From Candidatus Thorarchaeota archaeon (GTDB taxonomy: Archaea; Asgardarchaeota; Thorarchaeia; Thorarchaeales; Thorarchaeaceae): a stretch of DNA of 64,000 nt. Position numbers and translations under genes: made by a program. A model generated the notes under the pieces. That model had not been told where the DNA came from. It saw nothing but the letters and a program-made list of their open reading frames with translations, and searched no databases. Positions within the stretch are counted from its first letter, which is position 1. Each line of letters starts with the position of its first letter. Positions 2,496 through 14,477 of this stretch are shown one piece after another. The stretch spans positions 2,499,445 to 2,563,444 of the forward strand of contig CP070761.1 in NCBI GenBank assembly GCA_020348985.1, given 5' to 3'.

Positions 2496-2762
2496 TCAGT
2501 TCACCTCAACCGCAGACCTAACGCCCTCGATCGTCGGCACCTCTCCGCTGCTCAACATACGGAGTTTGCCATTGTTCTCAATGATAATGCTCGGAGTAGA
2601 AGCAATGAACACTTGGTTCTCGAGCAGTAGGAATTCGAAGTCAGGATCCATCCTGTTGAGGTCGACTGTGTGAAAAGAGACTTCAGAGCCTGCAACCGCT
2701 TCTTCAACGACAGCCTTTGCTGCCGGACAGTTGATGCAATTCTCCTGAGTTATCAGGTACAA
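2496..2762 (-). CDS. Glutaredoxin/NrdH-like redoxin
   Basis: CINC (CxxC) and the cis-Pro STP motif. Stop is 3 nt upstream of the nrdD start on the same strand. Exact start is uncertain. Confidence 0.75.
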   Translation of the reverse strand: MYLITQENCINCPAAKAVVEEAVAGSEVSFHTVDLNRMDPDFEFLLLENQVFIASTPSIIIENNGKLRMLSSGEVPTIEGVRSAVEVN

Positions 2763-5179: not shown

Positions 5180-7258
5180 GTGTCGCATCTGTACAAGAAA
5201 TTCGTAAACGAACGGATATCACACCTGATAGACAACACAGACAGGATCAGGAACTGTACAGTCATTGCGCACATAGACCATGGAAAGACTACATTGACAG
5301 ATTCGCTGATTGCTGCGTCTGGCCTCCTCTCAAAGGATGTAGCGGCCACTGCGAGGCTTCTCGACTATGACATAATTGAACAAGAGAGAGGGATTACGAT
5401 AAAGGCCTCGAGCATCTCACTTGTTCATAGCCTTGGCGAGTATGAATACCTTGTAAATCTCATAGACACACCCGGGCACATCGATTTCTCAAGTCATGTG
5501 ACAAGAGGCCTCCGTCTTACTGATGGTGCAATCATCGTAGTAGACGCAATAGAGGGTGTCATGGTTCAAACAGAGACCGTGACGAGGCAAGCAATGCGTG
5601 AACTTGTCAAGCCAGTTCTCTTTGTCAACAAGATTGACCGACTGATTACCGAAAGAAGGTTGAACTCAAGGAAGGTCGCAAAAGAGGTCAATCGTGTCGT
5701 TCGTGAGTTCAATGCCATGCTTGGCAAGTACCTTGACGACGATCGCTTAGTAGAATGGGAAGTCTCTTTCAGTCGAGGGTCTCTATGTGTTGGTTCAGCT
5801 CTTGACAAATGGGGAATAGGGTTTGAGGACCTACTTCGAGAAAGTGGAGGGAAGGATGACCCTTCAAGTCTTGAGTTCGCATTCCTATCTATGCTAGAAG
5901 GAATTGCAGAAGTATACTCCAAGGAAGAAGAGAAACAGCTTCCAGAAAGCTATCCTGTTGCGAAAGCCATCCTGGATGCGGTCGTCAAAATCGTGCCTAA
6001 CCCAATCCAAGCCCAGCAAGAACGGATACCCACATTCTGGAGCGCACCAGGGGAAGAACAGATTCGCGAGGCTCTTCTTCATTGTAAACCAGATGGCCCC
6101 TGCGTGGCAACGGTTGGTGACGTACAGCCAGATCGCCACGCCGGAACAGTTGCTGCCGTGAGAGTCTTTGCTGGAACCCTGCGAAGAGCTAAGCCATTGA
6201 GAAATACCAGGACTGGAAAGTCTGACAAATCACTACAGGTCGGACTCAATATGTCAAAGTCCAGAGTGGCTTTGCCAGAAGTCCCGGCTGGTAATCTCGC
6301 ATTCATAACTGGCCTTCGCGGTATTGCTGTTGGAGACACTCTCGTGGATGACGATTCAAAGGATATGGGGTTCATGAAAGGACTTGTGTATCCTACCGAG
6401 CCCGTCGTGACATTCACTCTAAGCCCAAAGAAGCTGTCGGAGCTCGGCAACATAGAGACCCCAATCAGGGAGTTTGTTGAAACAGATCCAGGACTTGAGT
6501 TTGAAATCAATGAAGAGACTGGAGAGTATCTGCTGTCTGGTGCAGGTGAGCTTCACATTGAGGTGAGCGTTCAGAAGCTGAATAGGATTGGCATCGACCT
6601 AATCCTTGGAGAACCAATAGTCGTCCTGAAGGAACAGATGACAAAGGACGGAGAGGTGGCAAAAGGAGGGGAACGTCCCTCGAGCACATTTTCAGTTCAA
6701 GCAGTTGTGACACAGCAGGAGCCGGACGCCTCCAAAGGAAGAGTCTTGGACTCGGTTCCACATTCTGATTGCTACCTCGTTGATACATCTGGGACCATTC
6801 CCCCATTCTCAGGAATTGAGGAATGGGTCGTAGAGGGATTTCGATCTGTGGTTAGAAATGGTCCGCTGCGAGGGGAACGAATGAGGAAGCTAACAGGAGT
6901 CATTCGTCAAGCAGAGATAAGCTTGGAGTCTCGAGAGACGTCATGGCGGGATGTGACTCAACCGTTTGTCAATGCGTTGAGATCTAGCATAGAGACCGGT
7001 ACTCCCAGAGTTCTGGAGCCGTGGGTTCATTTGGAGATTAGTGCGCCAGGGGAGCACGTAGGGAGACTAACTGCAATACTTGCCAGAAGAAAGGGTGATG
7101 TGCTCGAAATCGGATCTGAGAGAACACTGTATCTCATAGTCGCTGAGATACCTGTCAGGAAATCATTTGGTCTTGCCACTGAGATTAGAACGGCAACCTC
7201 GGGCTGGGCAACCTGGGGAGCAGAGAGCGGTGGATTCCGGGAAGCACATCTCGACTAG
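5180..7258 (+). CDS. Divergent elongation factor 2 paralog
   Basis: AHIDHGKTT, EQERGITI, DTPGHIDF, NKIDR and GAGELHIE are present. Domain IV lacks the HRG diphthamide loop and the protein ends early. Confidence 0.88.
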   Translation: MSHLYKKFVNERISHLIDNTDRIRNCTVIAHIDHGKTTLTDSLIAASGLLSKDVAATARLLDYDIIEQERGITIKASSISLVHSLGEYEYLVNLIDTPGHIDFSSHVTRGLRLTDGAIIVVDAIEGVMVQTETVTRQAMRELVKPVLFVNKIDRLITERRLNSRKVAKEVNRVVREFNAMLGKYLDDDRLVEWEVSFSRGSLCVGSALDKWGIGFEDLLRESGGKDDPSSLEFAFLSMLEGIAEVYSKEEEKQLPESYPVAKAILDAVVKIVPNPIQAQQERIPTFWSAPGEEQIREALLHCKPDGPCVATVGDVQPDRHAGTVAAVRVFAGTLRRAKPLRNTRTGKSDKSLQVGLNMSKSRVALPEVPAGNLAFITGLRGIAVGDTLVDDDSKDMGFMKGLVYPTEPVVTFTLSPKKLSELGNIETPIREFVETDPGLEFEINEETGEYLLSGAGELHIEVSVQKLNRIGIDLILGEPIVVLKEQMTKDGEVAKGGERPSSTFSVQAVVTQQEPDASKGRVLDSVPHSDCYLVDTSGTIPPFSGIEEWVVEGFRSVVRNGPLRGERMRKLTGVIRQAEISLESRETSWRDVTQPFVNALRSSIETGTPRVLEPWVHLEISAPGEHVGRLTAILARRKGDVLEIGSERTLYLIVAEIPVRKSFGLATEIRTATSGWATWGAESGGFREAHLD

Positions 7259-7266
7259 AAGCAGAG

Positions 7267-9573
7267 TTAGACTCTGAGGTAGTACTTCCGATTCATAATG
7301 TCTCCGAGGAATGAAAGGACTCTTCTGTCCACGAGAGAGACTGAGTCCATCATTCGAAGGGCACGCGTAATATTCGAGAAGACAGCATTGAGGTAGGGTT
7401 GAGCCTGGGCAAGTTCAGCCTCTTCCACCATTTCTAGGTAGTTGTCCGTGATCTTCATCAAACCCAGCCAATCTTCTGTGAGGATTAGATTGATCTCTTC
7501 GTCCCCAAGACTAGAAACTGCCTTCTCACTATCAATCCGGTCGATTTGTGCTCCGAATTGGCCTTCTAGAGCGAGCGCAAATCGCATCAGTGTTTCAGAG
7601 AACGATATGGCGGTGGCACGAATAAACTCTGATGATTCAACGTATTCGGTCTCTACAGCCCCTACCTCAATTAGAATGTTGGCTGCTTGATAAAGTCCGG
7701 TGGCTACTTCAGAATAGTCCCTGTTGTCGTAGTATGCCTTCAGAGTCTTGGCAATAGCGTTCTGTCCGTGCCAATACTGAGCAAGTAGATTGTCAGTCAG
7801 TTCTACTAGTTCTTCTACGGGAGAGAGTGAACGAACTCTGGCCTCCAGACTGATTGCCTGAAGATTCATCTTTCCTGAAGCGAGCGCGATCATGAGCCGT
7901 GCGGCGTCTGCCAGCACTGAATCCTCAGACACCACTTTGGCCGCACGGTCACGCAGAGTAGGCCACTGCTTATTGAGATATGGAACCACAAGTGACACGC
8001 CCTGAATGAAAATCGATTCTTCGTGATCTCGCGCGTCACTAAGCATTCTATCCATGTCTTCGAGAAGCCGCAGAATCTTCTCCGGCAGGGTCTTTCCGTG
8101 GCGAATCGTTAGCCACACTACATTGTACATTGAGATTGCGGCCTCTACAAAAGCACGGGGATCGGATGGAAACAGAGGGAAGTAGCTAACAAGGACCTCC
8201 CTAAGTGTTTCATACATCTCATCGTCAGTGCTCTCAAATGATCTCATCATTGAGAGAACTAGACCAATATGGCTTCCAAGTGCCTCCAGCTCTGAGATGT
8301 GTCCAGTCTGGAGGAGATCCTCTCTGATTCTGATTGCGTTTTGAAATGCCTCAATACCAATAGACCAGAACTCTGTCGAGTCATTAGAGAGACACACCCA
8401 GCCGATTGCATTCTCAACTCGTGCCATTTGGCAACGGATATCAAATCCAGACTGCTCAATTCTCTCCAGTGCCGACTTCGCTCTTGTCATGTACTCAATA
8501 CTGCGGGTAATGCTTCTATCGTCATCTAGCAATCCATGTGCAAAGCCAATTCCAGAGAGAGTCCGAAAAAGAAGGAGCGATTGGGAGACATCTAAATCCG
8601 TTTTGCTTTCGAAGACCTCCAGAGCGGCATTCAGTCGCGTAATCGCTTCGGGAACTGATTCCCTCCACCCATTTGCAAGAATGCTGGAGCCAATGACCAG
8701 ATGGGCCAACCCCAATCCATCCTTTGAAGACTCGCCTTCATCTAATACTTGCCTGAACATCTCCGCAGCATAATCGCCAAGAGTGCGTGCCCTCACATGA
8801 TCAACCGAATCGTCGCGGGTTTCATTGATGCTTAGAGCGAGAGTGATTGCCGCAAGATCGACCGAGCTATTGCGCTGTGTGGCCTCGGTTTCCAATCTCT
8901 TGAGAATAACACGAGCTTGGTCGTATATGCCCAACTCAGTAAGGACAGAAGACTCATCCAGAGAAACGTCGAAGTGTAAGTCATCGATGGACAGGTCCTT
9001 TGTTATCACCATCATTCGGTTCAGCAGTAGCTCTGCACCTTCGAAAAAGCTCGCTTCCGTCAATCTCGCTGTCAGATGGTGGACTTCCCTCAACGCCAAC
9101 CTAGTTGCTGCTTCGTGTCTCTTGTCAACGATGGCGTTGAGGGTCATCAGCACTTCATCTGCAAAGAATGGGAGAACCGGACGGAGGTTAAGCTCAAGGG
9201 CCATGTCAACTGATAGTGAGAGCTCGCCAAGGATGTCGAGAAGGACTTGTACTGCGGCCAGGTCGGGGAGAAGTTCGCTTTCTATCCGTCGGTAATCACT
9301 CGTGTATCTAGTATCTAGTAGCGCAAGCATCTCAGGCAGAACACGGTTCTCTTCAAAAGAAAGTCGGACTACTAGTTCTGTTAGCTTAGCACTTGCGATG
9401 CTTGGCCTCCTGAGTATGATCTCCTCGATAGCTCGAGCGCATTCAAACACAATGTCCGATTCGTCTGACCGTTTTATAGACATCCTTTGGATTGTTGAGA
9501 GTCCGTCGTCAAGGGAGAGAGTGCCACAGAGAATATCCCTCAATGTGACAATCAATACGGACTCCACTTTCAA
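7267..9573 (-). CDS. Large alpha-helical, TPR/alpha-solenoid-like protein
   Basis: 768-aa ORF with repeated helical units such as LGLAHLVIG, IGFAHGLL and ARVENAIGWVC. No catalytic motif recognised. Confidence 0.65.
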   Translation of the reverse strand: MKVESVLIVTLRDILCGTLSLDDGLSTIQRMSIKRSDESDIVFECARAIEEIILRRPSIASAKLTELVVRLSFEENRVLPEMLALLDTRYTSDYRRIESELLPDLAAVQVLLDILGELSLSVDMALELNLRPVLPFFADEVLMTLNAIVDKRHEAATRLALREVHHLTARLTEASFFEGAELLLNRMMVITKDLSIDDLHFDVSLDESSVLTELGIYDQARVILKRLETEATQRNSSVDLAAITLALSINETRDDSVDHVRARTLGDYAAEMFRQVLDEGESSKDGLGLAHLVIGSSILANGWRESVPEAITRLNAALEVFESKTDLDVSQSLLLFRTLSGIGFAHGLLDDDRSITRSIEYMTRAKSALERIEQSGFDIRCQMARVENAIGWVCLSNDSTEFWSIGIEAFQNAIRIREDLLQTGHISELEALGSHIGLVLSMMRSFESTDDEMYETLREVLVSYFPLFPSDPRAFVEAAISMYNVVWLTIRHGKTLPEKILRLLEDMDRMLSDARDHEESIFIQGVSLVVPYLNKQWPTLRDRAAKVVSEDSVLADAARLMIALASGKMNLQAISLEARVRSLSPVEELVELTDNLLAQYWHGQNAIAKTLKAYYDNRDYSEVATGLYQAANILIEVGAVETEYVESSEFIRATAISFSETLMRFALALEGQFGAQIDRIDSEKAVSSLGDEEINLILTEDWLGLMKITDNYLEMVEEAELAQAQPYLNAVFSNITRALRMMDSVSLVDRRVLSFLGDIMNRKYYLRV

Positions 9574-9648: not shown

Positions 9649-10371
9649 CTATTCTTGGCTGCTTTCGAGGATGAACTCGTGCCACTCACGAGATGCCTCG
9701 GTTCCGCGCATCCGCTCCATTCTGACGAAATGACCTGGGGGTGCGCTTGACTCATCAATGTTGAATCGTAGTACTGCGTCGGCAAGGTACGAAAATGTCG
9801 CGTAGGTCTTTTCATCATGAACTCCCTCTTCAAGTACATACATAATACTGTGTGAGCTTTGAGTGATTCTTCCACTTAGCCTTTGAACTGCTCGAGGCAT
9901 TGTAGCAGGATTTGAGTGGAGAATAAGAGTAGATAGACTGTCGACCACAATCCGGGCTACTACGAGGTCCTCAAGAACTTCAAACAACACAATGCCCAGC
10001 TCGCTGATGTCATCAACCTTTGTCAGAGACCTAGTTGAGCCAGCCATAGGAGCTCCCATTCGCTCGGAGTAACCATCTATGAAGACTAGTTTCCCTTCCT
10101 GCTCATACTTCTCAAGGGACCATCCATGACGACTCATATCATTCCTGATGACCCTGGGGGATACGTCTGTTGTCACAATAACTCCAGGGAAACCCTGTCG
10201 TAATCCATCGGCGATATAGGCCTCACCATACGTGGACTTCCCGGAACCAATAGGACCGACAAGCATGACTGATACTTGAGTCAACTGACCAAATTTGACA
10301 AGGTCGCCAATCATCGGCGTAGCAGTGGTCTTGTGCTCTTCCTCTTTGTCGGTCTGCTCCTTCTCACCCAA
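9649..10371 (-). CDS. KaiC/RAD55-family ATPase, single domain (CII-like, degenerate catalytic EE)
   Basis: Walker A GPIGSGKST, Walker B IVVDS, FSYLADAV and RMRG. It has VTTDV where KaiC has the catalytic EE. Confidence 0.85.
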   Translation of the reverse strand: MGEKEQTDKEEEHKTTATPMIGDLVKFGQLTQVSVMLVGPIGSGKSTYGEAYIADGLRQGFPGVIVTTDVSPRVIRNDMSRHGWSLEKYEQEGKLVFIDGYSERMGAPMAGSTRSLTKVDDISELGIVLFEVLEDLVVARIVVDSLSTLILHSNPATMPRAVQRLSGRITQSSHSIMYVLEEGVHDEKTYATFSYLADAVLRFNIDESSAPPGHFVRMERMRGTEASREWHEFILESSQE

Positions 10372-10402
10372 ATCTCATGCCTCTTGATGCCTTCCAAATC
10401 TA

Positions 10403-11146
10403 TCATCCGGATCCTATCTCGCCCGGGAATACTCTGATTCCGTCCTCAGTTATTCTCATCGAATGGATGCGTGAGCTATGCTGAGAACCCCTCAATTTCA
10501 GTACTTCGATGGACCTTGACCTTGAGGTTTCACTGATCTTCTCATTATAGAGAACTATGACTCCTGAGGCAAGGAACGCCTCGATGTCAAATACTCCCAG
10601 TCCATCATGCTGTTCTGGAATCTCACTGGTCAATACTAGCGTCCGTCCTTCATCCGTCAGATGTGCTGCGAGTTTGAAGAACTCCTCTCTCAGAATGTCA
10701 CGACTCTTGAACTTGTATGCCATTATTGACAACGTGTCCAGCACGATTCTCTTAGCTCCAAGCTTCTTTACGTGATTCATGATGATTGCTTCTAGACCAG
10801 ATAGATCGAAGCTGGGATACTCGCCGATTGTGACTGGCGTGGCTTCTTTCGAGGGAGATAGGTCCACGACGGCTAGTTTGCCTTCTTCCTCCAGCTTCTT
10901 CAAGTCCATGCCAAAACGCAGCATGTTTCTCCGAATCATCTTCGGAGCCTCCTCCAAGGTCACTAGGACACCTGCCTCGTCGTACGTCACAGCTCCGTTG
11001 TATAGGAACTGTGTGGCCAGGATGCTCTTCCCTGTACCTGCTTTTCCCGCAACAAGGATTGTATCCCCTTTGGGAAATCCTCCTTCTATTAGCTCGTCCA
11101 GGCCGGGAATTCCTGTCTTGACACGTTCTATTGTGAATTCACTCAT
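10403..11146 (-). CDS. KaiC-family ATPase, single domain (CI-like)
   Basis: TGIPGLDELIEGG, GKAGTGKS, QFLYNG, VTLEE, B-loop-like DLSP...FDLSGL, KLRG and ITEDGIRVFP. Confidence 0.92.
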   Translation of the reverse strand: MSEFTIERVKTGIPGLDELIEGGFPKGDTILVAGKAGTGKSILATQFLYNGAVTYDEAGVLVTLEEAPKMIRRNMLRFGMDLKKLEEEGKLAVVDLSPSKEATPVTIGEYPSFDLSGLEAIIMNHVKKLGAKRIVLDTLSIMAYKFKSRDILREEFFKLAAHLTDEGRTLVLTSEIPEQHDGLGVFDIEAFLASGVIVLYNEKISETSRSRSIEVLKLRGSQHSSRIHSMRITEDGIRVFPGEIGSG

Positions 11147-11149
11147 TCT

Positions 11150-11476
11150 TCATACCTCGTTGGTTGTTACACGGACTCCCAGAATCATCTTCATGAGCAT
11201 CTCTGGCTCAGGGATACCGGTGATTGACAAGTTTCCTATCATGACTGTAGGCAATGCAAACACACCATACTCTTCTGCTGCCTCGGGAGTCTCGCTGACG
11301 TTGATTACTCTTAGCTTGAACGTTCCGGGTTCAAAGGTTTCAATGGTCTCTCGGACAACCTCCTCTGCACGCGGACAGAAAGCACAGGTATCCGACTTGA
11401 ACAGCACTATCTCCATAGTGTCTGAGTCTTCGACACCGTCTTCTGGGGCCTCATCACTTTCGGCCTTTTCCGCCAA
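11150..11476 (-). CDS. Thioredoxin-fold, KaiB-like protein with CxxC
   Basis: CAFC plus LRVINVSETPEAAEEYGVFALPT. Stop is 3 nt upstream of the KaiC-like gene. TTG start follows a CAGGAG SD-like site. Confidence 0.8.
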   Translation of the reverse strand: MAEKAESDEAPEDGVEDSDTMEIVLFKSDTCAFCPRAEEVVRETIETFEPGTFKLRVINVSETPEAAEEYGVFALPTVMIGNLSITGIPEPEMLMKMILGVRVTTNEV

Positions 11477-11567
11477 TGAGCTGAACTCCTGGACCAGTGA
11501 ACCTCAAGCAGAAGTGGGGCGACCTCTCTTGAATGTTTTGACAAAACTTCACGCGTATTCCTAGCAG

Positions 11568-11954
11568 CTACCGCTTGTACCGCATTATCTGTCGAATCGT
11601 TGTTGCGCCTTTGCCAATAGCGCGTGAGTGATAACGTACACTCTTTGGCATTATTGCGGCAACAAGAAGTGTCTGCTCGTCCCTCGACCCGATCTTTCGA
11701 ATGACCGCCTTGCCAGCACTGCATCTCACTACAATGTCCTTGACCTCTCCAAGCTCAAGGTCCTTCCGCATTCTCTCAACAGTCGAAGCAACATACCCTG
11801 ACATGGCTGCCACCACGTCCGGGTTTGTTCTTGGAGCCACGGCGTTTGCCATCGGCCAGCCGTCATCGCGAGAAAGGACAGAAGCATAGAATCCTCCTTC
11901 CTTGTTCATCTCTTCGAGAACCTTCGTGAGAGCACTGTAGTCAGGTCGCTCCAT
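11568..11954 (-). CDS. Roadblock/LC7 (MglB-like) domain protein
   Basis: 128 aa with the Roadblock pattern: ASVLSRDDGWPMA, VAAMSG, LELGEVKDIVVRC. Confidence 0.85.
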   Translation of the reverse strand: MERPDYSALTKVLEEMNKEGGFYASVLSRDDGWPMANAVAPRTNPDVVAAMSGYVASTVERMRKDLELGEVKDIVVRCSAGKAVIRKIGSRDEQTLLVAAIMPKSVRYHSRAIGKGATTIRQIMRYKR

Positions 11955-12139
11955 TTCAGACCCTCCGGCCTACTTGTCAGCCTCTCAATCACTCAGTGCC
12001 TTATAACAATTCATCGCATATTTCATTCAGCTCGTGCATAGGCGGCCAGAGCACCAATTCCAGACAGAGTTGTTTCAAGCAGTAGGAATGTCAGAAACAG
12101 CTTTTTAGGGGATGGCGCATTCGGGTCTTCAGGAAGGAT

Positions 12140-12682
12140 TTGAGTATCATGCCGGCCGATTACCGCTTCAAGTGCGTCATGATTGGAGATGGTGCTGTCG
12201 GCAAGACCGCCCTCACGGTTCGATTCACTGAGGGCCGCTTTGAAGCCGATTACAAGCGGACGATTGGCAGTGACTTTGCGGTCAAGAGAATTGAGCTGCC
12301 GGACATGGATGCTGGTGTGACGCTGCAAGTATGGGACCTTGCAGGTCAGCCAAGATTCGAGTTTGTACGTCAGTCATTCTATCGTGGCGCGAGAGGAGGG
12401 GTCCTTGTTTATGATGTCACTCGACGACGAACTTTCATGAACTTGGACAGCTGGAAGAAAGAGGCGTTCGATGCTCTTGGAACAGAGATACCTCTTGTAA
12501 TTGTGGCAAACAAGGTAGACCTAGCGGACAGCAGGGTAGTTCCGACTGAAGACGGACAGAAGTACGCGGATGAAAACGGGCACCTCTACGTAGAGTCTTC
12601 AGCCCTGACAGGCGAGAATGTTGAAGAAACCTTTGCCACCCTTTGCAGAAATCTGATTAGTCAGACCAAAGACAGTAGCTAG
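12140..12682 (+). CDS. Rab-like small GTPase
   Basis: GDGAVGKT, TIGSDF, LQVWDLAGQ, FYRGA, LVYDVT, NKVD and SAL. No C-terminal Cys. Confidence 0.93.
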   Translation: MSIMPADYRFKCVMIGDGAVGKTALTVRFTEGRFEADYKRTIGSDFAVKRIELPDMDAGVTLQVWDLAGQPRFEFVRQSFYRGARGGVLVYDVTRRRTFMNLDSWKKEAFDALGTEIPLVIVANKVDLADSRVVPTEDGQKYADENGHLYVESSALTGENVEETFATLCRNLISQTKDSS

Positions 12683-12696
12683 TTGACTAAGCCCAG

Positions 12697-13860
12697 TCAA
12701 TCCAGCTTTCGTGTTTTGCCCTTCAAGAGACCAAGCGCCTTCTTGCACTGCCATTGAATATAGAAGAGCCGCTTATCTTTGAGTGTCTCCTCATCGTACT
12801 GGCCTAGCAGACTCTCGTATTTCTCAATCAGCGCATCCTTCTGAGCCAGTTGGGGATCGCTCTCTATCTCTTTGAGGAGGCTCTCGAACGGAGCCAACAT
12901 CGATGCCAAATCCAAGACATCCCAGCGGAGTATTGCACCAGTTCCATCAGAGCTCAGGAATGAGTGCTCATCATGATACCATTCGAGACCATCAATCTCG
13001 CTGTCTGTTCTACCTTCACCCTCGATTGTGTAGTCCTCAGTCGACCATATGTATAGATCTTTGTCACTTGATCCTGACGCCAAGTATCTCCCGTCACTAC
13101 TGAAGGAAACGGCCCTTACTTCGTTCAGATGGCCTAGCAAGACTCGAGAGCCCTTCAGTGCACCACCCTGAGCGTCCCATATGATGATCGAATTGTCGGA
13201 GGATCCGGACGCCATTGTTGAACCGTCAGTAGTGAACCTGAGTGTATGAACTGCCGTCCTGTGGTCTTCATGCTTCTTAGTAGCCTTGCCGCTCGACGGA
13301 TTCCATTCGATAATGGTCGAATCTACAGAACCGGACACTATCCGGTTGCCGTTCGGATCCCAATCACAAGTCTTTACGTAAAGCGCGTGGCCTCTCAACG
13401 TGGCAAGTTCGCTGTAGTTTGACGTATCCCATATCTTCAGTGTCGTGTCGCCGCTTGCCGATACGAGTCTGTCACCATCAGGAGAAAAGGCAAGCGACAG
13501 AATTGGATAAGAGTGGCCCTCCAAGGTAGCGAGCAATTCTGCTGTTCTGATGTCCCAGAGCTTGACAACTCGACCGACGCTGCCACTGGCCACAATGTCC
13601 CCCTTTGGACTAAATGCAATCGATGTGCAAAGATGGTCGTCAGACATTCTTTGGATTTCTTCACAGTTCCTCGCGTCATAGAGTCGGATTGATTTGTCCT
13701 GAATTGCCGCAGCAAGCATCCTGCCGACTCTGTTCATGGCAAAACGTCTCGTAATCTCAGAGCCATGACTGGCGGCAGGTCTGAGCGTTTGGGGTTTGAG
13801 GAATAGGGATAACTCCTGCTCGGTCATGATTCTGCATCCAGGGCCCGTTAACGTGGTCAC
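12697..13860 (-). CDS. WD40-repeat beta-propeller protein with C-terminal helical tail
   Basis: About 7 GH...WD repeats, e.g. LEGHSYPILSLAFSPDGDRLVSASGDTTLKIWD. The true start may be ATG 13827. Confidence 0.93.
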   Translation of the reverse strand: MTTLTGPGCRIMTEQELSLFLKPQTLRPAASHGSEITRRFAMNRVGRMLAAAIQDKSIRLYDARNCEEIQRMSDDHLCTSIAFSPKGDIVASGSVGRVVKLWDIRTAELLATLEGHSYPILSLAFSPDGDRLVSASGDTTLKIWDTSNYSELATLRGHALYVKTCDWDPNGNRIVSGSVDSTIIEWNPSSGKATKKHEDHRTAVHTLRFTTDGSTMASGSSDNSIIIWDAQGGALKGSRVLLGHLNEVRAVSFSSDGRYLASGSSDKDLYIWSTEDYTIEGEGRTDSEIDGLEWYHDEHSFLSSDGTGAILRWDVLDLASMLAPFESLLKEIESDPQLAQKDALIEKYESLLGQYDEETLKDKRLFYIQWQCKKALGLLKGKTRKLD

Positions 13861-13910
13861 GGCGTGGTGACCCTGCTAAAAGGCTTATGTTAGACGAACT
13901 GGATTGCGTG

Positions 13911-14477
13911 CTATACGAGTCCGCCTGACTCTAGAATCTTGATCGCAAGTTCCAAGAAAGCGGCCTCGACGTTGTGACCCGTCTTGGCAGATGTCTCAAG
14001 GAATGAAGTAATGACACCATGACCCGCTATCTTCTCAGCAAGACCTTTGCCTTCGTCGGTTGTAACGATAGTCTGTGCCATAACAGGGTTGTCCTTGAAT
14101 TGCTCTCGGAGATCGGTCTTGTTGGCTATGAGTACAACGGGAACCTTCTTACCCGCATTCGACCAACACTCATCCACCCAGTTCTGTATGTTGTCAAAAG
14201 AACCTCGCTCCACAACAGAGTAGACAGCCAAGGCTCCTTGGGCGCCCTTATAGAAGGTCGAGCGCACACTCTTGAAATGCTCCTGCCCTGCCAAGTCCCA
14301 AATCTGCACACTGACATCGTGACCTCCAGCAAGCTGCATCTTCTTCACGGCGAAGTCTGCACCGATGGTGAGGTGGTATTGTGCTCTGAATCCTTCGCCC
14401 ATGTAGGTACGTCTCAGGGAAGTCTTGCCGACGCTCCCGTCGCCCATGAGGACTATCTTGAATAGGGCAGTGACCAT
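13911..14477 (-). CDS. Rab-like small GTPase
   Basis: GDGSVGKT, TIGADF, QIWDLAGQ, FYKGA, NKTD and SAKTG. No C-terminal Cys. Confidence 0.93.
   Translation of the reverse strand: MVTALFKIVLMGDGSVGKTSLRRTYMGEGFRAQYHLTIGADFAVKKMQLAGGHDVSVQIWDLAGQEHFKSVRSTFYKGAQGALAVYSVVERGSFDNIQNWVDECWSNAGKKVPVVLIANKTDLREQFKDNPVMAQTIVTTDEGKGLAEKIAGHGVITSFLETSAKTGHNVEAAFLELAIKILESGGLV

What the first reader, a model, noticed from the sequence alone, without database searches (positions are those of the whole stretch)
9649..11954. kaiBC-like operon with a split KaiC, a redox-active KaiB-like protein and a Roadblock gene in the kaiA position
Seen: four co-oriented genes in the order Roadblock, thioredoxin-fold protein, KaiC-like 1, KaiC-like 2, with gaps of 91, 3 and 31 nt. 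The comparisons below use cyanobacterial sequences recalled from memory. The small protein has FKLRVINVSETPEAAEEYGVFALPT versus KaiB [25 protein letters not shown], but keeps a CAFC dithiol that KaiB lacks. ATPase 1 looks like the CI domain: QFLYNG, intact VTLEE, KLRG and an insertion DLSPSKEATPVTIGEYPSFDLSGL where CI has the KaiB-binding B-loop (DASPDPEGQEVVGGFDLSAL). ATPase 2 looks like CII: RMRG and FSYLAD at the position of the ISTITD phosphosites, but the catalytic EE is lost (VTTDV). Inference: a two-chain KaiC ring gated by a redox-sensing KaiB-like partner and connected through a Roadblock protein to small-GTPase signalling, acting as a timer or redox/energy switch in an Asgard archaeon. 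Single-domain KaiC-like ATPases are common in archaea. The novel element is this gene combination and order.
Basis: partly seen in the sequence, partly recalled or inferred. Interest (0 to 1): 0.88.

Follow-up and report, generated by a model that had tools for sequence, protein, structure and literature searches.

The report
Thorarchaeal thioredoxin–KaiC–Roadblock signalling operon
In Thorarchaeota (Asgard archaea), a dedicated redox-type thioredoxin is always encoded just ahead of one active and one catalytically crippled KaiC-family ATPase, next to a Roadblock protein and a Rab-like GTPase. A structure model places the thioredoxin on the KaiC loop where the cyanobacterial clock proteins KaiB and SasA bind, so this looks like an untested redox/ATP signalling module and not a clock split in two.

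Summary
Four co-oriented minus-strand genes (Roadblock, CxxC thioredoxin, KaiC1, KaiC2) have gaps of 91, 3 and 31 nt. The order is conserved in every fetched locus long enough to hold them (about 45, 16+ genera) and in a sister family.

- KaiC1 is an intact single-domain KaiC with a CI-type B-loop. It lies with true CI/CII domains in the tree.
- KaiC2 is not CII-like. It belongs to a separate, degenerate KaiC clade whose catalytic Glu-Glu pair is replaced (here Asp-Val). The "split KaiC" reading fails.
- The small protein is a real thioredoxin (MJ0307/Thioredoxin_3 type, specialised paralog), not a KaiB family member.
- A complex model nevertheless docks its active-site face on the KaiC1 B-loop (ipSAE 0.76; best control 0.01). 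The contacts use the Phe-Asp pair that KaiC needs to bind KaiB/SasA. This pass may partly reflect memory of solved KaiB–CI complexes.
- KaiC1 and KaiC2 have no cysteines, so binding would be structural or redox-gated.
- The Roadblock is MglB-like and sits divergent from the crystallised Thor-Rab GTPase.

No KaiA, true KaiB or CII-type domain was found.

This scan had already noted the same cluster on other Thorarchaeota genomes. I found no description of it in searchable papers.

The parts
11568..11954 (-). Roadblock/LC7 (MglB-like) protein, 128 aa. First gene of the co-oriented run, with its own upstream spacer and a GGAGG ribosome-binding site.
   Evidence: PF03259 22.8 bits. AF2 model pLDDT 89. 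Foldseek top hits are Asgard Roadblock3 9jue, MglB 3t1s/6izw and Ragulator p14/MP1. Conserved in all Thor loci.
11150..11476 (-). Dedicated CxxC thioredoxin, 108 aa (MJ0307/Thioredoxin_3 type), with a disordered acidic N-terminal ~20 aa.
   Evidence: PF13192 39.6 bits and TIGR00411 53 bits. Best PDB match 1fo5. Minimal Trx fold βαβαββα. Top 50 Foldseek hits are all thioredoxins. Orthologs occur only in Thor family f1 and sister f2. The genome has three canonical Trx genes elsewhere.
11375..11386 (-). CAFC active-site dithiol (C31, C34), followed by P35.
   Evidence: Invariant in 26 orthologs. Coordinates checked. Residues 30-33 lie in the predicted KaiC1 interface.
10403..11146 (-). KaiC1: catalytically intact single-domain KaiC ATPase, 247 aa. 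Its start is 3 nt after the Trx stop.
   Evidence: PF06745 239.5 bits. 189 bits to the CI half of KaiC 8zn5. Walker A GKAGTGKS, catalytic EE, Walker B and KLRG are all conserved. It lies on the CI/CII side of a 94/94 split.
10775..10867 (-). B-loop insert of KaiC1 plus the start of the following helix (residues 94-124), including F113-D114.
   Evidence: Aligns with the CI B-loop, which CII lacks. The stretch EYPSFDLSGL is 90-100% conserved. It is the predicted Trx-binding surface. F113/D114 align with KaiC F122/D123, which are needed for KaiB/SasA binding (bioRxiv 10.1101/2020.06.17.158394).
9649..10371 (-). KaiC2: divergent KaiC paralog, 240 aa. Probably binds nucleotide but is hydrolysis-impaired.
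   Evidence: PF06745 104.3 bits, DUF7504 35 bits. Best PDB matches are PH0284 and PH0186. Invariant Walker A Lys, Walker B Asp and RMRG. Outside the CII clade. Only 3 representatives with E<=1e-30 among 1.84 billion.
10162..10167 (-). Asp69-Val70 at the position of the catalytic Glu-Glu pair in KaiC2.
   Evidence: T67 T68 D69 V70 are invariant in 24 orthologs. The whole KaiC2-like clade has replaced the Glu-Glu pair, mostly with D-x. Coordinates checked.
9787..9792 (-). Ser194-Tyr195 of KaiC2, at the alignment position of the KaiC CII phosphosites S431/T432.
   Evidence: MAFFT alignment. At least 90% conserved, and Ser is kept in the sister family. That it is an acceptor is pure inference.
7267..9573 (-). 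768-aa TPR-like α-solenoid, 75 nt downstream on the same strand. Candidate scaffold.
   Evidence: No Pfam hit. Atlas feature and structure neighbours are TPR proteins. Conserved after KaiC2 in family f1 but missing in sister-family locus L021.
12140..12682 (+). Rab-like small GTPase, ortholog of the crystallised Thor-Rab. Divergent from the Roadblock gene.
   Evidence: PF00071 173.7 bits. 285 bits to 7ezb 'Thorarchaeota Rab'. Adjacent in all Thor loci, and co-oriented upstream of Roadblock in L021.
11955..12139 (.). 185-nt divergent spacer between the Roadblock and Thor-Rab genes. Presumed to hold both promoters.
   Evidence: Sequence read. It contains a TTATAA element and a GGAGG before the Roadblock ATG. 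Promoter function is inferred, not tested.

Best explanation
This is a lineage-specific signalling module of the order that contains Thorarchaeota. It is built around a KaiC-type ATPase and is not a clock.

Proposed mechanism:
- KaiC1 is an active single-domain KaiC, presumably a hexamer like PH0186 and KaiC-CI.
- Its exposed B-loop binds a dedicated thioredoxin through the thioredoxin's active-site face (CxxC plus the cis-Pro loop). This is the same docking mode that fold-switched KaiB and the SasA thioredoxin-like domain use on KaiC-CI.
- KaiC1 and KaiC2 have no cysteines, so the thioredoxin is not reducing them. Its own dithiol/disulfide state, the nucleotide state of KaiC1, or both, would decide whether the complex forms. 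The module would thus combine redox and ATP/ADP information.
- KaiC2 keeps nucleotide-binding and Arg-finger residues but has lost the catalytic Glu pair. It acts as a regulatory partner or adaptor of KaiC1 (an 'iKaiC').
- The output goes to the neighbouring MglB-like Roadblock and the Rab-like GTPase Thor-Rab, with the TPR solenoid as a scaffold.

Shown: gene content, motifs, folds, phylogenetic placement and conserved order.
Supported by a model only: Trx binding to the KaiC1 B-loop.
Inferred: redox or nucleotide gating, KaiC1-KaiC2 assembly, and the link to the GTPase.
For: - Conserved order Roadblock-Trx-KaiC1-KaiC2 in every fetched Thorarchaeota locus long enough to hold it (about 45). 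A sister family keeps it at 33-64% identity, with the GTPase co-oriented there.
- The Trx stop is 3 nt from, or overlaps, the KaiC1 start.
- The Trx is a specialised paralog. The genome has three canonical thioredoxins, and orthologs of this one are confined to the two families.
- Complex model: ipSAE 0.76 against a best control of 0.01. The mark was reached by 58 of 80 solved complexes and 2 of 110 mismatched pairs. The runs agree in at least 97% of contacts and the partner's pLDDT is at least 86. The interface is KaiC1 residues 94-124 with Trx residues 30-33, 64-77 and 81-90.
- KaiC1 F113/D114 align with KaiC F122/D123, which are needed for KaiB and SasA binding.
- 28 of the 36 Trx interface residues lie in the C-terminal half, as reported for fsKaiB.
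- Trx interface residues are more conserved than the rest: 24/36 against 12/50, Fisher p = 8e-5.
- KaiC1 and KaiC2 have no Cys.
- A Trx-fold gene abutting a KaiC of the same tree side recurs: G036 and G046 have a CGFC Trx overlapping KaiC, followed by a RagA-like GTPase. A metagenomic double-domain KaiC has an upstream wHTH-Trx-fold protein without Cys. Bacteria have kaiB-kaiC.
- The nearest relatives of this Trx in other Asgard families are CxxC domains inside a PAS-Trx-histidine kinase and a Trx-V4R protein. That is a signalling context.
- The KaiC2 clade generally lacks the Glu-Glu pair and includes REC-KaiC fusions.
- The Roadblock has an MglB-like fold, and the neighbouring GTPase is Thor-Rab. 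Its low intrinsic GTPase activity led its authors to expect a GAP or GEF (PMC10933270).
- G033 has Ras-like GTPase, KaiC and iKaiC in a row, with a divergent Roadblock.
Against: - No experiment exists for any of these proteins except the Thor-Rab ortholog.
- KaiB-CI and SasA-CI complexes are solved. KaiC1 is about 40-50% identical to CI, so the model's pass may come from memory of those structures and shows likeness, not binding.
- The conserved Trx 'interface' is also the generic thioredoxin active-site face, so its conservation is not independent evidence.
- KaiC1 interface residues are not more conserved than the rest of this very conserved protein.
- Synteny within one order could partly be inheritance. 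The conserved block runs from PolB to an EF2-like gene.
- The TPR gene is missing in the sister family.
- None of the 10 extended KaiC2 relatives checked was fused to a GTPase.
- KaiC1-KaiC2 assembly and any Roadblock-KaiC contact were not tested.
Confidence: 0.5

Rival explanations
1. The thioredoxin is an ordinary disulfide reductase. KaiC1 recruits it, or it merely sits nearby, and it acts on cysteine-containing clients such as the Roadblock protein (C78), Thor-Rab (C169) or the TPR protein (C394). KaiC1 would serve as a docking platform rather than being regulated by it.
For: Intact CxxC-P and cis-Pro in all orthologs. Single conserved Cys in Roadblock (96%), Thor-Rab (89%) and TPR (92%). 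The docking face is the substrate-binding face of thioredoxins.
Against: Each candidate client has only one conserved Cys, so there is no obvious intramolecular disulfide. The sister-family Roadblock has no Cys at all. No thioredoxin reductase gene was identified among the conserved neighbours mapped. This reading does not explain why the Trx stop and the KaiC1 start abut or overlap.
Confidence: 0.15
2. The association is incidental. A thioredoxin paralog and two KaiC-like genes are kept together only by shared ancestry within one order, and the docking model is a recall of KaiB-CI structures.
For: The wide block from PolB to the EF2-like gene is also conserved. The complex-prediction tool warns that families with a solved complex can pass from memory. 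The KaiB model weakly hits thioredoxins in genomes without KaiB.
Against: The pairing survives at 47% (sister family) and 28% (G036) Trx identity, where the flanks differ. Stop and start abut or overlap. The Trx is a dedicated paralog. Three controls scored 0.00-0.01.
Confidence: 0.2
3. This is a KaiBC-like timer (hourglass or oscillator). KaiC1 and KaiC2 stand for CI and CII of a KaiC split into two chains, and the thioredoxin stands for KaiB.
For: KaiC1 has CI-like motifs and a B-loop. KaiC2 has Ser194 at the S431-equivalent position. Trx is predicted on the B-loop. Archaeal KaiC homologs show autokinase activity (PMC5520375).
Against: KaiC2 is outside the CII clade (CII is monophyletic at 96/92). 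It matches the CI part of the KaiC models. It lacks the catalytic Glu needed for autokinase chemistry and has no A-loop tail. There is no KaiA and no KaiB above cut-off. Outside cyanobacteria, KaiB occurs only with full-length KaiC (PMC5520375).
Confidence: 0.06

Closest known systems
Fold-switched KaiB, and the SasA N-terminal thioredoxin-like domain, bound to the B-loop of KaiC-CI (PDB 5JWO, 5JWQ, 6X61)
   Same: A small thioredoxin-fold protein is encoded directly upstream of kaiC. It is predicted to dock on the B-loop insert through its C-terminal half, using the conserved Phe-Asp of the loop.
   Different: The Thor protein is a bona fide CxxC thioredoxin (Thioredoxin_3/MJ0307 type), below the KaiB cut-offs. 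It aligns with true KaiB over only 39 columns, and there is no sign of a tetrameric ground state or fold switch. Its partner is a single-domain KaiC. There is no KaiA, CII domain or histidine-kinase output.
Archaeal single-domain KaiC-like ATPases and 'iKaiC' partners (PH0186 2zts, PH0284 2dr3). The KaiC signal-transduction hub proposal of Makarova, Galperin and Koonin (mBio 2017) is cited from my own knowledge and via PMC5847659.
   Same: Single-domain KaiC of about 250 aa, paired with a paralog that has inactivated catalytic residues, in a neighbourhood of signalling proteins. KaiC2's relatives include REC-KaiC fusions.
   Different: I did not find the specific partners here (a dedicated thioredoxin, a Roadblock, a Rab-like GTPase and a TPR solenoid) described in searchable papers. 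KaiC1 lies on the CI/CII side of the tree, apart from most other Asgard single-domain KaiCs.
MglA/MglB GTPase-Roadblock switch (3t12, 6izw) and Thor-Rab (7ezb; Tran et al. 2024, PMC10933270)
   Same: A Roadblock-fold protein next to a Ras-superfamily GTPase. The GTPase is the ortholog of Thor-Rab.
   Different: Thor-Rab is Rab-like, not MglA-like. The Roadblock gene heads an operon with Trx and two KaiCs. GAP activity has not been tested.
E. coli thioredoxin as a structural subunit of T7 DNA polymerase (own knowledge; the PDB entries appear among the weak hits)
   Same: A thioredoxin binds a partner loop through its active-site face without redox chemistry on that partner.
   Different: Unrelated partner and process. 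This is cited only as a precedent for a structural or redox-state-dependent role of a thioredoxin.
MJ0307 thioredoxin of Methanocaldococcus jannaschii (1fo5)
   Same: Closest solved sequence relative (49 bits). Minimal βαβαββα fold, CxxC-P and cis-Pro.
   Different: Below the TIGR00411 equivalog cut-off (53 against 92.75). The Thor protein has an acidic N-terminal extension and a fixed position ahead of KaiC.

Membership tests
Circadian KaiC sensu stricto (NF006799 / TIGR02655) | One chain of about 500 aa with tandem CI and CII domains, scoring over the curated equivalog cut-offs | tested here: not met
   Two separate genes of 247 and 240 aa. KaiC1 scores 214.5 (cut-off 408) and 172.4 (cut-off 546). 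KaiC2 scores 55.2 and 28.5.
Circadian KaiC sensu stricto (NF006799 / TIGR02655) | CI-type B-loop with the Phe-Asp needed for KaiB/SasA binding | tested here: met
   KaiC1 residues 94-118 align with the CI B-loop. F113/D114 align with F122/D123.
Circadian KaiC sensu stricto (NF006799 / TIGR02655) | A CII domain with catalytic Glu pair, S431/T432 phosphosites and an A-loop tail | tested here: not met
   KaiC2 has Asp-Val in place of Glu-Glu, lies outside the CII clade, and ends right after the ATPase domain. Only a Ser at the S431-equivalent position is shared.
KaiC superfamily domain (Pfam PF06745) | Domain score over the gathering cut-off of 26.6 | tested here: met
   239.5 bits (KaiC1) and 104.3 bits (KaiC2).
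KaiB (PF07689 / TIGR02654) | Score over the curated cut-offs | tested here: not met
   23.7 against 27 (Pfam), 18.1 against 145.3 (TIGR02654). All 26 orthologs hit KaiB weakly but hit Thioredoxin_3 better. hhalign to a true KaiB covers only 39 columns.
KaiB (PF07689 / TIGR02654) | No redox CxxC; metamorphic fold (tetrameric ground state switching to a Trx-like monomer) | tested here: not met
   CxxC is invariant. The model gives a plain thioredoxin fold. Fold switching itself cannot be tested with these tools.
KaiB (PF07689 / TIGR02654) | Binds the KaiC CI B-loop | tested here: inconclusive
   The model supports binding at the B-loop: ipSAE 0.76, best control 0.01, with 58/80 solved and 2/110 mismatched pairs reaching the mark. 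It is a model only and may draw on solved KaiB-CI complexes.
Thioredoxin, MJ0307 / Thioredoxin_3 type (PF13192, TIGR00411) | Pfam score over cut-off, CxxC and cis-Pro, thioredoxin fold | tested here: met
   39.6 against 24.8. C31/C34/P76 invariant. βαβαββα model, and the top 50 Foldseek hits are all thioredoxins.
Thioredoxin, MJ0307 / Thioredoxin_3 type (PF13192, TIGR00411) | Equivalog-level membership (TIGR00411 cut-off 92.75) | tested here: not met
   53.1 bits.
Thioredoxin, MJ0307 / Thioredoxin_3 type (PF13192, TIGR00411) | Disulfide oxidoreductase activity | not testable with these tools
   Needs an insulin or DTNB reduction assay and a redox-potential measurement.
Roadblock/LC7 - MglB | Roadblock fold (α-β-β-α-β-β-β plus a C-terminal helix) | tested here: met
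   Model pLDDT 89. Foldseek TM 0.82-0.90 to 9jue and MglB 3t1s/6izw. Pfam 22.8 bits, against a cut-off of 23.
Roadblock/LC7 - MglB | Acts as a GAP or regulator of a partner small GTPase | not testable with these tools
   Only adjacency to the Thor-Rab ortholog is shown.
Archaeal KaiC + inactivated KaiC (iKaiC) signalling pairs | A KaiC-fold paralog with lost catalytic residues encoded next to an intact KaiC | tested here: met
   KaiC2 has EE replaced by an invariant DV, 31 nt after the intact KaiC1. The G033 locus is analogous.

The most novel reading that the evidence does not exclude
The thioredoxin-KaiC B-loop pairing seen here is a surviving early form of the KaiB/SasA-KaiC interaction. 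In this reading, a redox-active thioredoxin partner of a single-domain KaiC came first, and Cys-less derivatives followed: the wHTH-Trx-fold protein upstream of a double-domain KaiC (L092), then KaiB and the SasA N-domain. In Asgard archaea the redox- and ATP-gated KaiC complex would control a Rab-like GTPase through a Roadblock GAP. That would be a direct metabolic input to a eukaryote-like G-protein switch.
Probability: 0.15. Interest if true: 0.85.

Novelty: new variant of a known kind. Interest (0 to 1): 0.6.

Why it matters
If the thioredoxin really binds the KaiC1 B-loop in a redox- or nucleotide-dependent way, three things follow.

1. It would give the first concrete input and partner for an archaeal single-domain KaiC 'hub'.
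2. It would suggest where the clock protein KaiB and the SasA sensor domain came from, namely a redox-active thioredoxin partner of KaiC.
3. It would name candidate regulators (Roadblock, the KaiC pair, TPR) for Thor-Rab. That Asgard Rab-like GTPase has a solved structure, but its GAP and GEF are unknown, and its authors say they cannot be guessed from genome layout in other Asgards.

All the proteins are small and soluble-looking, so the hypothesis can be tested directly in vitro.

Tried and rejected
- Split-KaiC (CI + CII) reading: rejected by the tree and the family models.
- KaiB membership of the small protein: rejected.
- KaiA in the genome: none found, with the control positive in Synechococcus.
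- Defence-system reading: no PADLOC hit except a 19.5-bit chance-level match. The Asgard defensome paper only mentions a viral KaiC-domain gene.
- Rosetta-stone search for KaiC2-GTPase fusions: none among 10 extended KaiC2 relatives. Three are REC-KaiC fusions and the rest have unassigned N-termini.
- Trx-KaiC fusions: the long Asgard proteins hit by the Trx profile are PAS-Trx-histidine kinase, Trx-V4R and a 308-aa protein, not KaiC fusions.
- Small proteins of 139 and 152 aa upstream of the G036 Trx-KaiC pair are not detectably Roadblock-like (hhalign probability below 1%).
- Expression: no RNA holder listed for the locus.
- Makarova et al. 2017 could not be read. It is cited from my own knowledge and via papers that cite it.
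- KaiC1 interface residues are not more conserved than the rest of the protein.
- Promoter and terminator scanning was not attempted, because the tool models bacterial sigma-70 sites.


Full report
**1. Observation.** One search lists four minus-strand ORFs at exactly the stated coordinates:
- 11568-11954 (128 aa)
- 11150-11476 (108 aa)
- 10403-11146 (247 aa)
- 9649-10371 (240 aa)

The gaps are 91, 3 and 31 nt. Pfam and NCBIfam assign them as follows:
- Roadblock/LC7: 22.8 bits, against a cut-off of 23.
- Thioredoxin_3: 39.6 bits. The MJ0307-family model TIGR00411 gives 53 bits, below its equivalog cut-off. KaiB gives 23.7 bits, below its cut-off of 27.
- KaiC PF06745: 239.5 bits and 104.3 bits.

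Record titles of near-identical loci show that the organism is a Thorarchaeota archaeon. The genome (3.16 Mb, one contig) has only these two strong KaiC-domain genes.

**2. Conservation.** The order Roadblock-Trx-KaiC1-KaiC2 is found in all 19 loci fetched from other genomes of the same family. It is also found in every contig-search Thorarchaeota locus long enough to hold it (28 loci).
- In these loci a 768-aa gene follows on the same strand, and a Rab-like GTPase lies divergently upstream.
- The conserved block is in fact wider, running from PolB to an EF2-like gene. Synteny inside this family alone is therefore weak evidence.
- The sister-family genome G025 (L021) is more telling. The proteins there are only 33-64% identical, the 768-aa gene is missing, and the GTPase has become co-oriented. 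The result is a five-gene run: GTPase-Roadblock-Trx-KaiC1-KaiC2.
- The Trx stop is 3 nt from the KaiC1 start in the window, and abuts or overlaps it in most orthologous loci.

**3. The small protein is a thioredoxin, not a KaiB.**
- Its best solved relative is the MJ0307 thioredoxin 1fo5. No KaiB appears among the 60 best of 115 PDB sequence matches.
- The AF2 model (residues 21-106, pLDDT about 85-90) is a minimal βαβαββα thioredoxin fold. The 50 best Foldseek matches are all thioredoxins.
- C31, C34, P35 and the cis-Pro P76 are invariant in 26 orthologs.
- All orthologs hit the KaiB model weakly, but Thioredoxin_3 always scores better. The KaiB model also gives sub-threshold hits in control genomes that lack KaiB, such as M. 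jannaschii.
- hhalign to a genuine bacterial KaiB (L064, next to a 518-aa KaiC) covers only the β2-α2-β3 stretch, 39 columns.
- The genome has three canonical thioredoxins elsewhere, at 62-74 bits.
- Orthologs of the operon's Trx (at least 138 bits) exist only in the Thorarchaeota family and its sister family among 301 genomes of the phylum. The next hits drop to 73 bits or less.

So this is a dedicated paralog.

**4. The two ATPases.**

KaiC1:
- It has every catalytic element: Walker A GKAGTGKS, Glu65-Glu66, Walker B and KLRG.
- It is 84% conserved per column among orthologs.
- It is about 40% identical to cyanobacterial KaiC, aligning best to CI.
- Its insert VDLSPSKEATPVTIGEYPSFDLSGL aligns with the CI B-loop, which CII lacks.

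KaiC2:
- It keeps an invariant Walker A lysine, the Walker B Asp and RMRG. The catalytic Glu pair is an invariant Asp69-Val70.
- It matches the CI portion of the KaiC models, not CII. Its best solved relatives are the Pyrococcus single-domain proteins PH0284 and PH0186.
- Among 1.84 billion representatives only three reach E<=1e-30.

Tree. In a maximum-likelihood tree of 66 domains, a 94/94 branch separates two sides.
- One side holds Thor KaiC1, the KaiCs of two other Asgard loci (L024, L029), all true CI domains, the CII clade and thaumarchaeal homologs. KaiC1 sits in an unresolved polytomy there and is not nested within CI.
- The other side holds most other Asgard single-domain KaiCs, Methanocaldococcus, and a long-branched clade (99/98) that contains KaiC2, its metagenomic relatives and the degenerate KaiC of L029.
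- CII is monophyletic (96/92) without KaiC2.

The KaiC2-like clade as a whole has replaced the Glu-Glu pair, mostly with D-x, and some members have also lost Walker A or the Arg finger. Three of ten N-terminally extended members are response-regulator receiver-KaiC fusions.

The pair is therefore an intact KaiC plus an 'iKaiC'-type paralog. It is not a KaiC split into CI and CII. Ser194-Tyr195 of KaiC2 do align with S431/T432, and the Ser is conserved in both families, but this alone says nothing about phosphorylation.

- The model supports binding; it does not show it. The score is 0.76, and the best of three controls is 0.01. The mark was reached by 58 of 80 solved complexes and 2 of 110 mismatched pairs. 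The three runs agree in at least 97% of contacts, and the partner's pLDDT is at least 86.
- The counts hold only roughly, because my own alignments were used.
- KaiB-CI and SasA-CI complexes are solved, so the pass may come from memory. It shows likeness, not that this protein binds.
- The interface on KaiC1 is residues 94-124, that is the B-loop and the start of the next helix. The lowest-error contacts are at F113-L118.
- The interface on Trx is residues 26-37 (including C31 and F33), 60-77 (including A74-T77 around the cis-Pro) and 81-97.
- KaiC F122 and D123 are required for both KaiB and SasA binding (bioRxiv 10.1101/2020.06.17.158394). They align with KaiC1 F113 and D114.
- The fsKaiB interface is formed mainly by its C-terminal half (PMC6378743). 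Here 28 of 36 interface residues lie at position 60 or later.
- Trx interface residues are more conserved than the rest (24/36 against 12/50 at 90% or more; Fisher p = 8e-5). This face is also the generic thioredoxin active-site face, so the evidence is not independent.
- KaiC1 interface residues are not enriched.
- The window's KaiC1 and KaiC2 contain no cysteine. The thioredoxin therefore cannot be reducing them. Binding would be structural, or sensitive to the thioredoxin's own redox state. The structural role of E. coli thioredoxin in T7 DNA polymerase is a precedent (own knowledge).

**6. The pairing recurs outside Thorarchaeota.**
- In two genera of another Asgard family (G036, G046), a CGFC thioredoxin overlaps a KaiC of the same tree side and is followed by a Gtr1/RagA-like GTPase. 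This sits in a conserved six-gene cluster at 60-71% identity. hhalign of the Thor Trx profile to this thioredoxin gives 98.6% over the full length.
- The closest double-domain relative of KaiC1 (P0001, 42% identity) has an overlapping upstream gene for a winged-helix protein with a Trx-fold domain. In that domain the CxxC positions are Ser and Val, and hhalign gives 96% over 85 columns.
- Bacteria have kaiB-kaiC.
- A third Asgard lineage (G033) has Ras-like GTPase, KaiC and a Walker-A-less KaiC in a row, with a divergent Roadblock gene and no Trx.
- The nearest non-orthologous relatives of the Thor Trx in other Asgard families are CxxC domains inside a PAS-Trx-histidine kinase and inside a Trx-V4R protein. 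The former architecture recalls SasA.

Together these findings place this thioredoxin subfamily in signalling contexts. They also show a graded series of Trx-fold genes ahead of CI-side KaiCs, from redox-active to Cys-less.

**7. The neighbours.**
- The Roadblock model (pLDDT 89) matches Asgard Roadblock3 (9jue), MglB (3t1s, 6izw) and Ragulator p14/MP1.
- The divergent GTPase is the ortholog of the crystallised Thor-Rab (7ezb, 285 bits), with Arg40 at the position of Thor-Rab Arg37.
- Tran et al. 2024 (PMC10933270) report that Thor-Rab has low intrinsic GTPase activity and probably needs a GAP or GEF. They say that Asgard GTPase regulators cannot generally be matched from genome layout. They do not mention thioredoxin, and 'adjacent' and 'gene cluster' do not occur in the text.
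- The 768-aa protein is a TPR-like solenoid.
- No KaiA is present. There is no defence-system signal.

**8. Literature and earlier notes.** Searches for Asgard/Thorarchaeota with KaiC, Roadblock or thioredoxin found no description of this cluster. Schmelling et al. 2017 state that outside cyanobacteria KaiB is found only with full-length KaiC, and that single-domain KaiCs lack the phosphosites. This scan had already noted the same cluster in other Thorarchaeota genomes, and related ones in Jordarchaeales. I treated those notes as leads and re-derived the points I use.

**9. Verdict.**
- The 'split KaiC', 'KaiB family member' and 'timer' parts of the interpretation are not supported.
- The 'thioredoxin-fold partner on the B-loop' and 'link to Roadblock/GTPase signalling' parts are supported, by a model and by recurrent gene neighbourhoods respectively.
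- It is best filed as a new variant of the archaeal KaiC-hub kind that works like KaiB/SasA docking on KaiC-CI. Everything mechanistic is still untested.

Noticed in passing
L095:472-2508 (+), genome G292, another Asgard family: A 679-aa PAS-thioredoxin(CVYC)-histidine kinase. A Trx_3-type domain sits inside a sensor kinase, an architecture that recalls cyanobacterial SasA (Trx-like domain plus histidine kinase) but with an intact CxxC.
   Followed up: partly
L094:730-2277 (-), genome G075: A 516-aa protein with an N-terminal CxxC Trx_3 domain and C-terminal V4R domains. It is recurrent in several Asgard families as frames of about 500 aa.
   Followed up: partly
L092:5433-6029 (+) and 6001-7497 (+), JGI metagenome contig: A winged-helix plus Trx-fold protein that has lost both cysteines overlaps the start of a 498-aa double-domain KaiC. 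That KaiC's CI half sits in the polytomy with Thor KaiC1. This is a possible intermediate between CxxC-thioredoxin partners and KaiB.
   Followed up: partly
L024:3236-6415 (+) and L097:1574-4796 (-), genomes G036 and G046: A conserved six-gene cluster: 139 aa, 100 aa, 152 aa, CGFC thioredoxin, KaiC, then a Gtr1/RagA-like GTPase. The three small proteins have no Pfam family, and the two tested (139 and 152 aa) are not detectably Roadblock-like.
   Followed up: partly
window 2514-2747 (-): A second, sub-threshold Thioredoxin_3-like frame (22.5 bits, 112-aa open frame) about 8.4 kb from the operon's thioredoxin.
   Followed up: no
window 5180-7258 (+): An EF-2-like GTPase paralog of 692 aa is the conserved flank of the cluster. 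It lies convergent to the TPR gene in Thorarchaeota, and directly after KaiC2 in the sister family.
   Followed up: no
window 12697-14477 (-), compared with L032, L034 and others: Most Thorarchaeota loci have about 1.4 kb of extra sequence between the second Rab-like GTPase and the WD40 gene. The window and a few other loci lack it.
   Followed up: no
window 11535-11547 (-), in the Roadblock-Trx spacer: A short palindrome GTTTTG-T-CAAAAC in the 91-nt spacer between the Roadblock and Trx genes. Whether it is a terminator, a regulator site or chance was not examined.
   Followed up: no
L037:6835-7540 (+): In one Thorarchaeota MAG the KaiC2 ortholog matches as two overlapping pieces (6835-7335 and 7295-7540). 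This suggests a frameshift or an assembly error.
   Followed up: no
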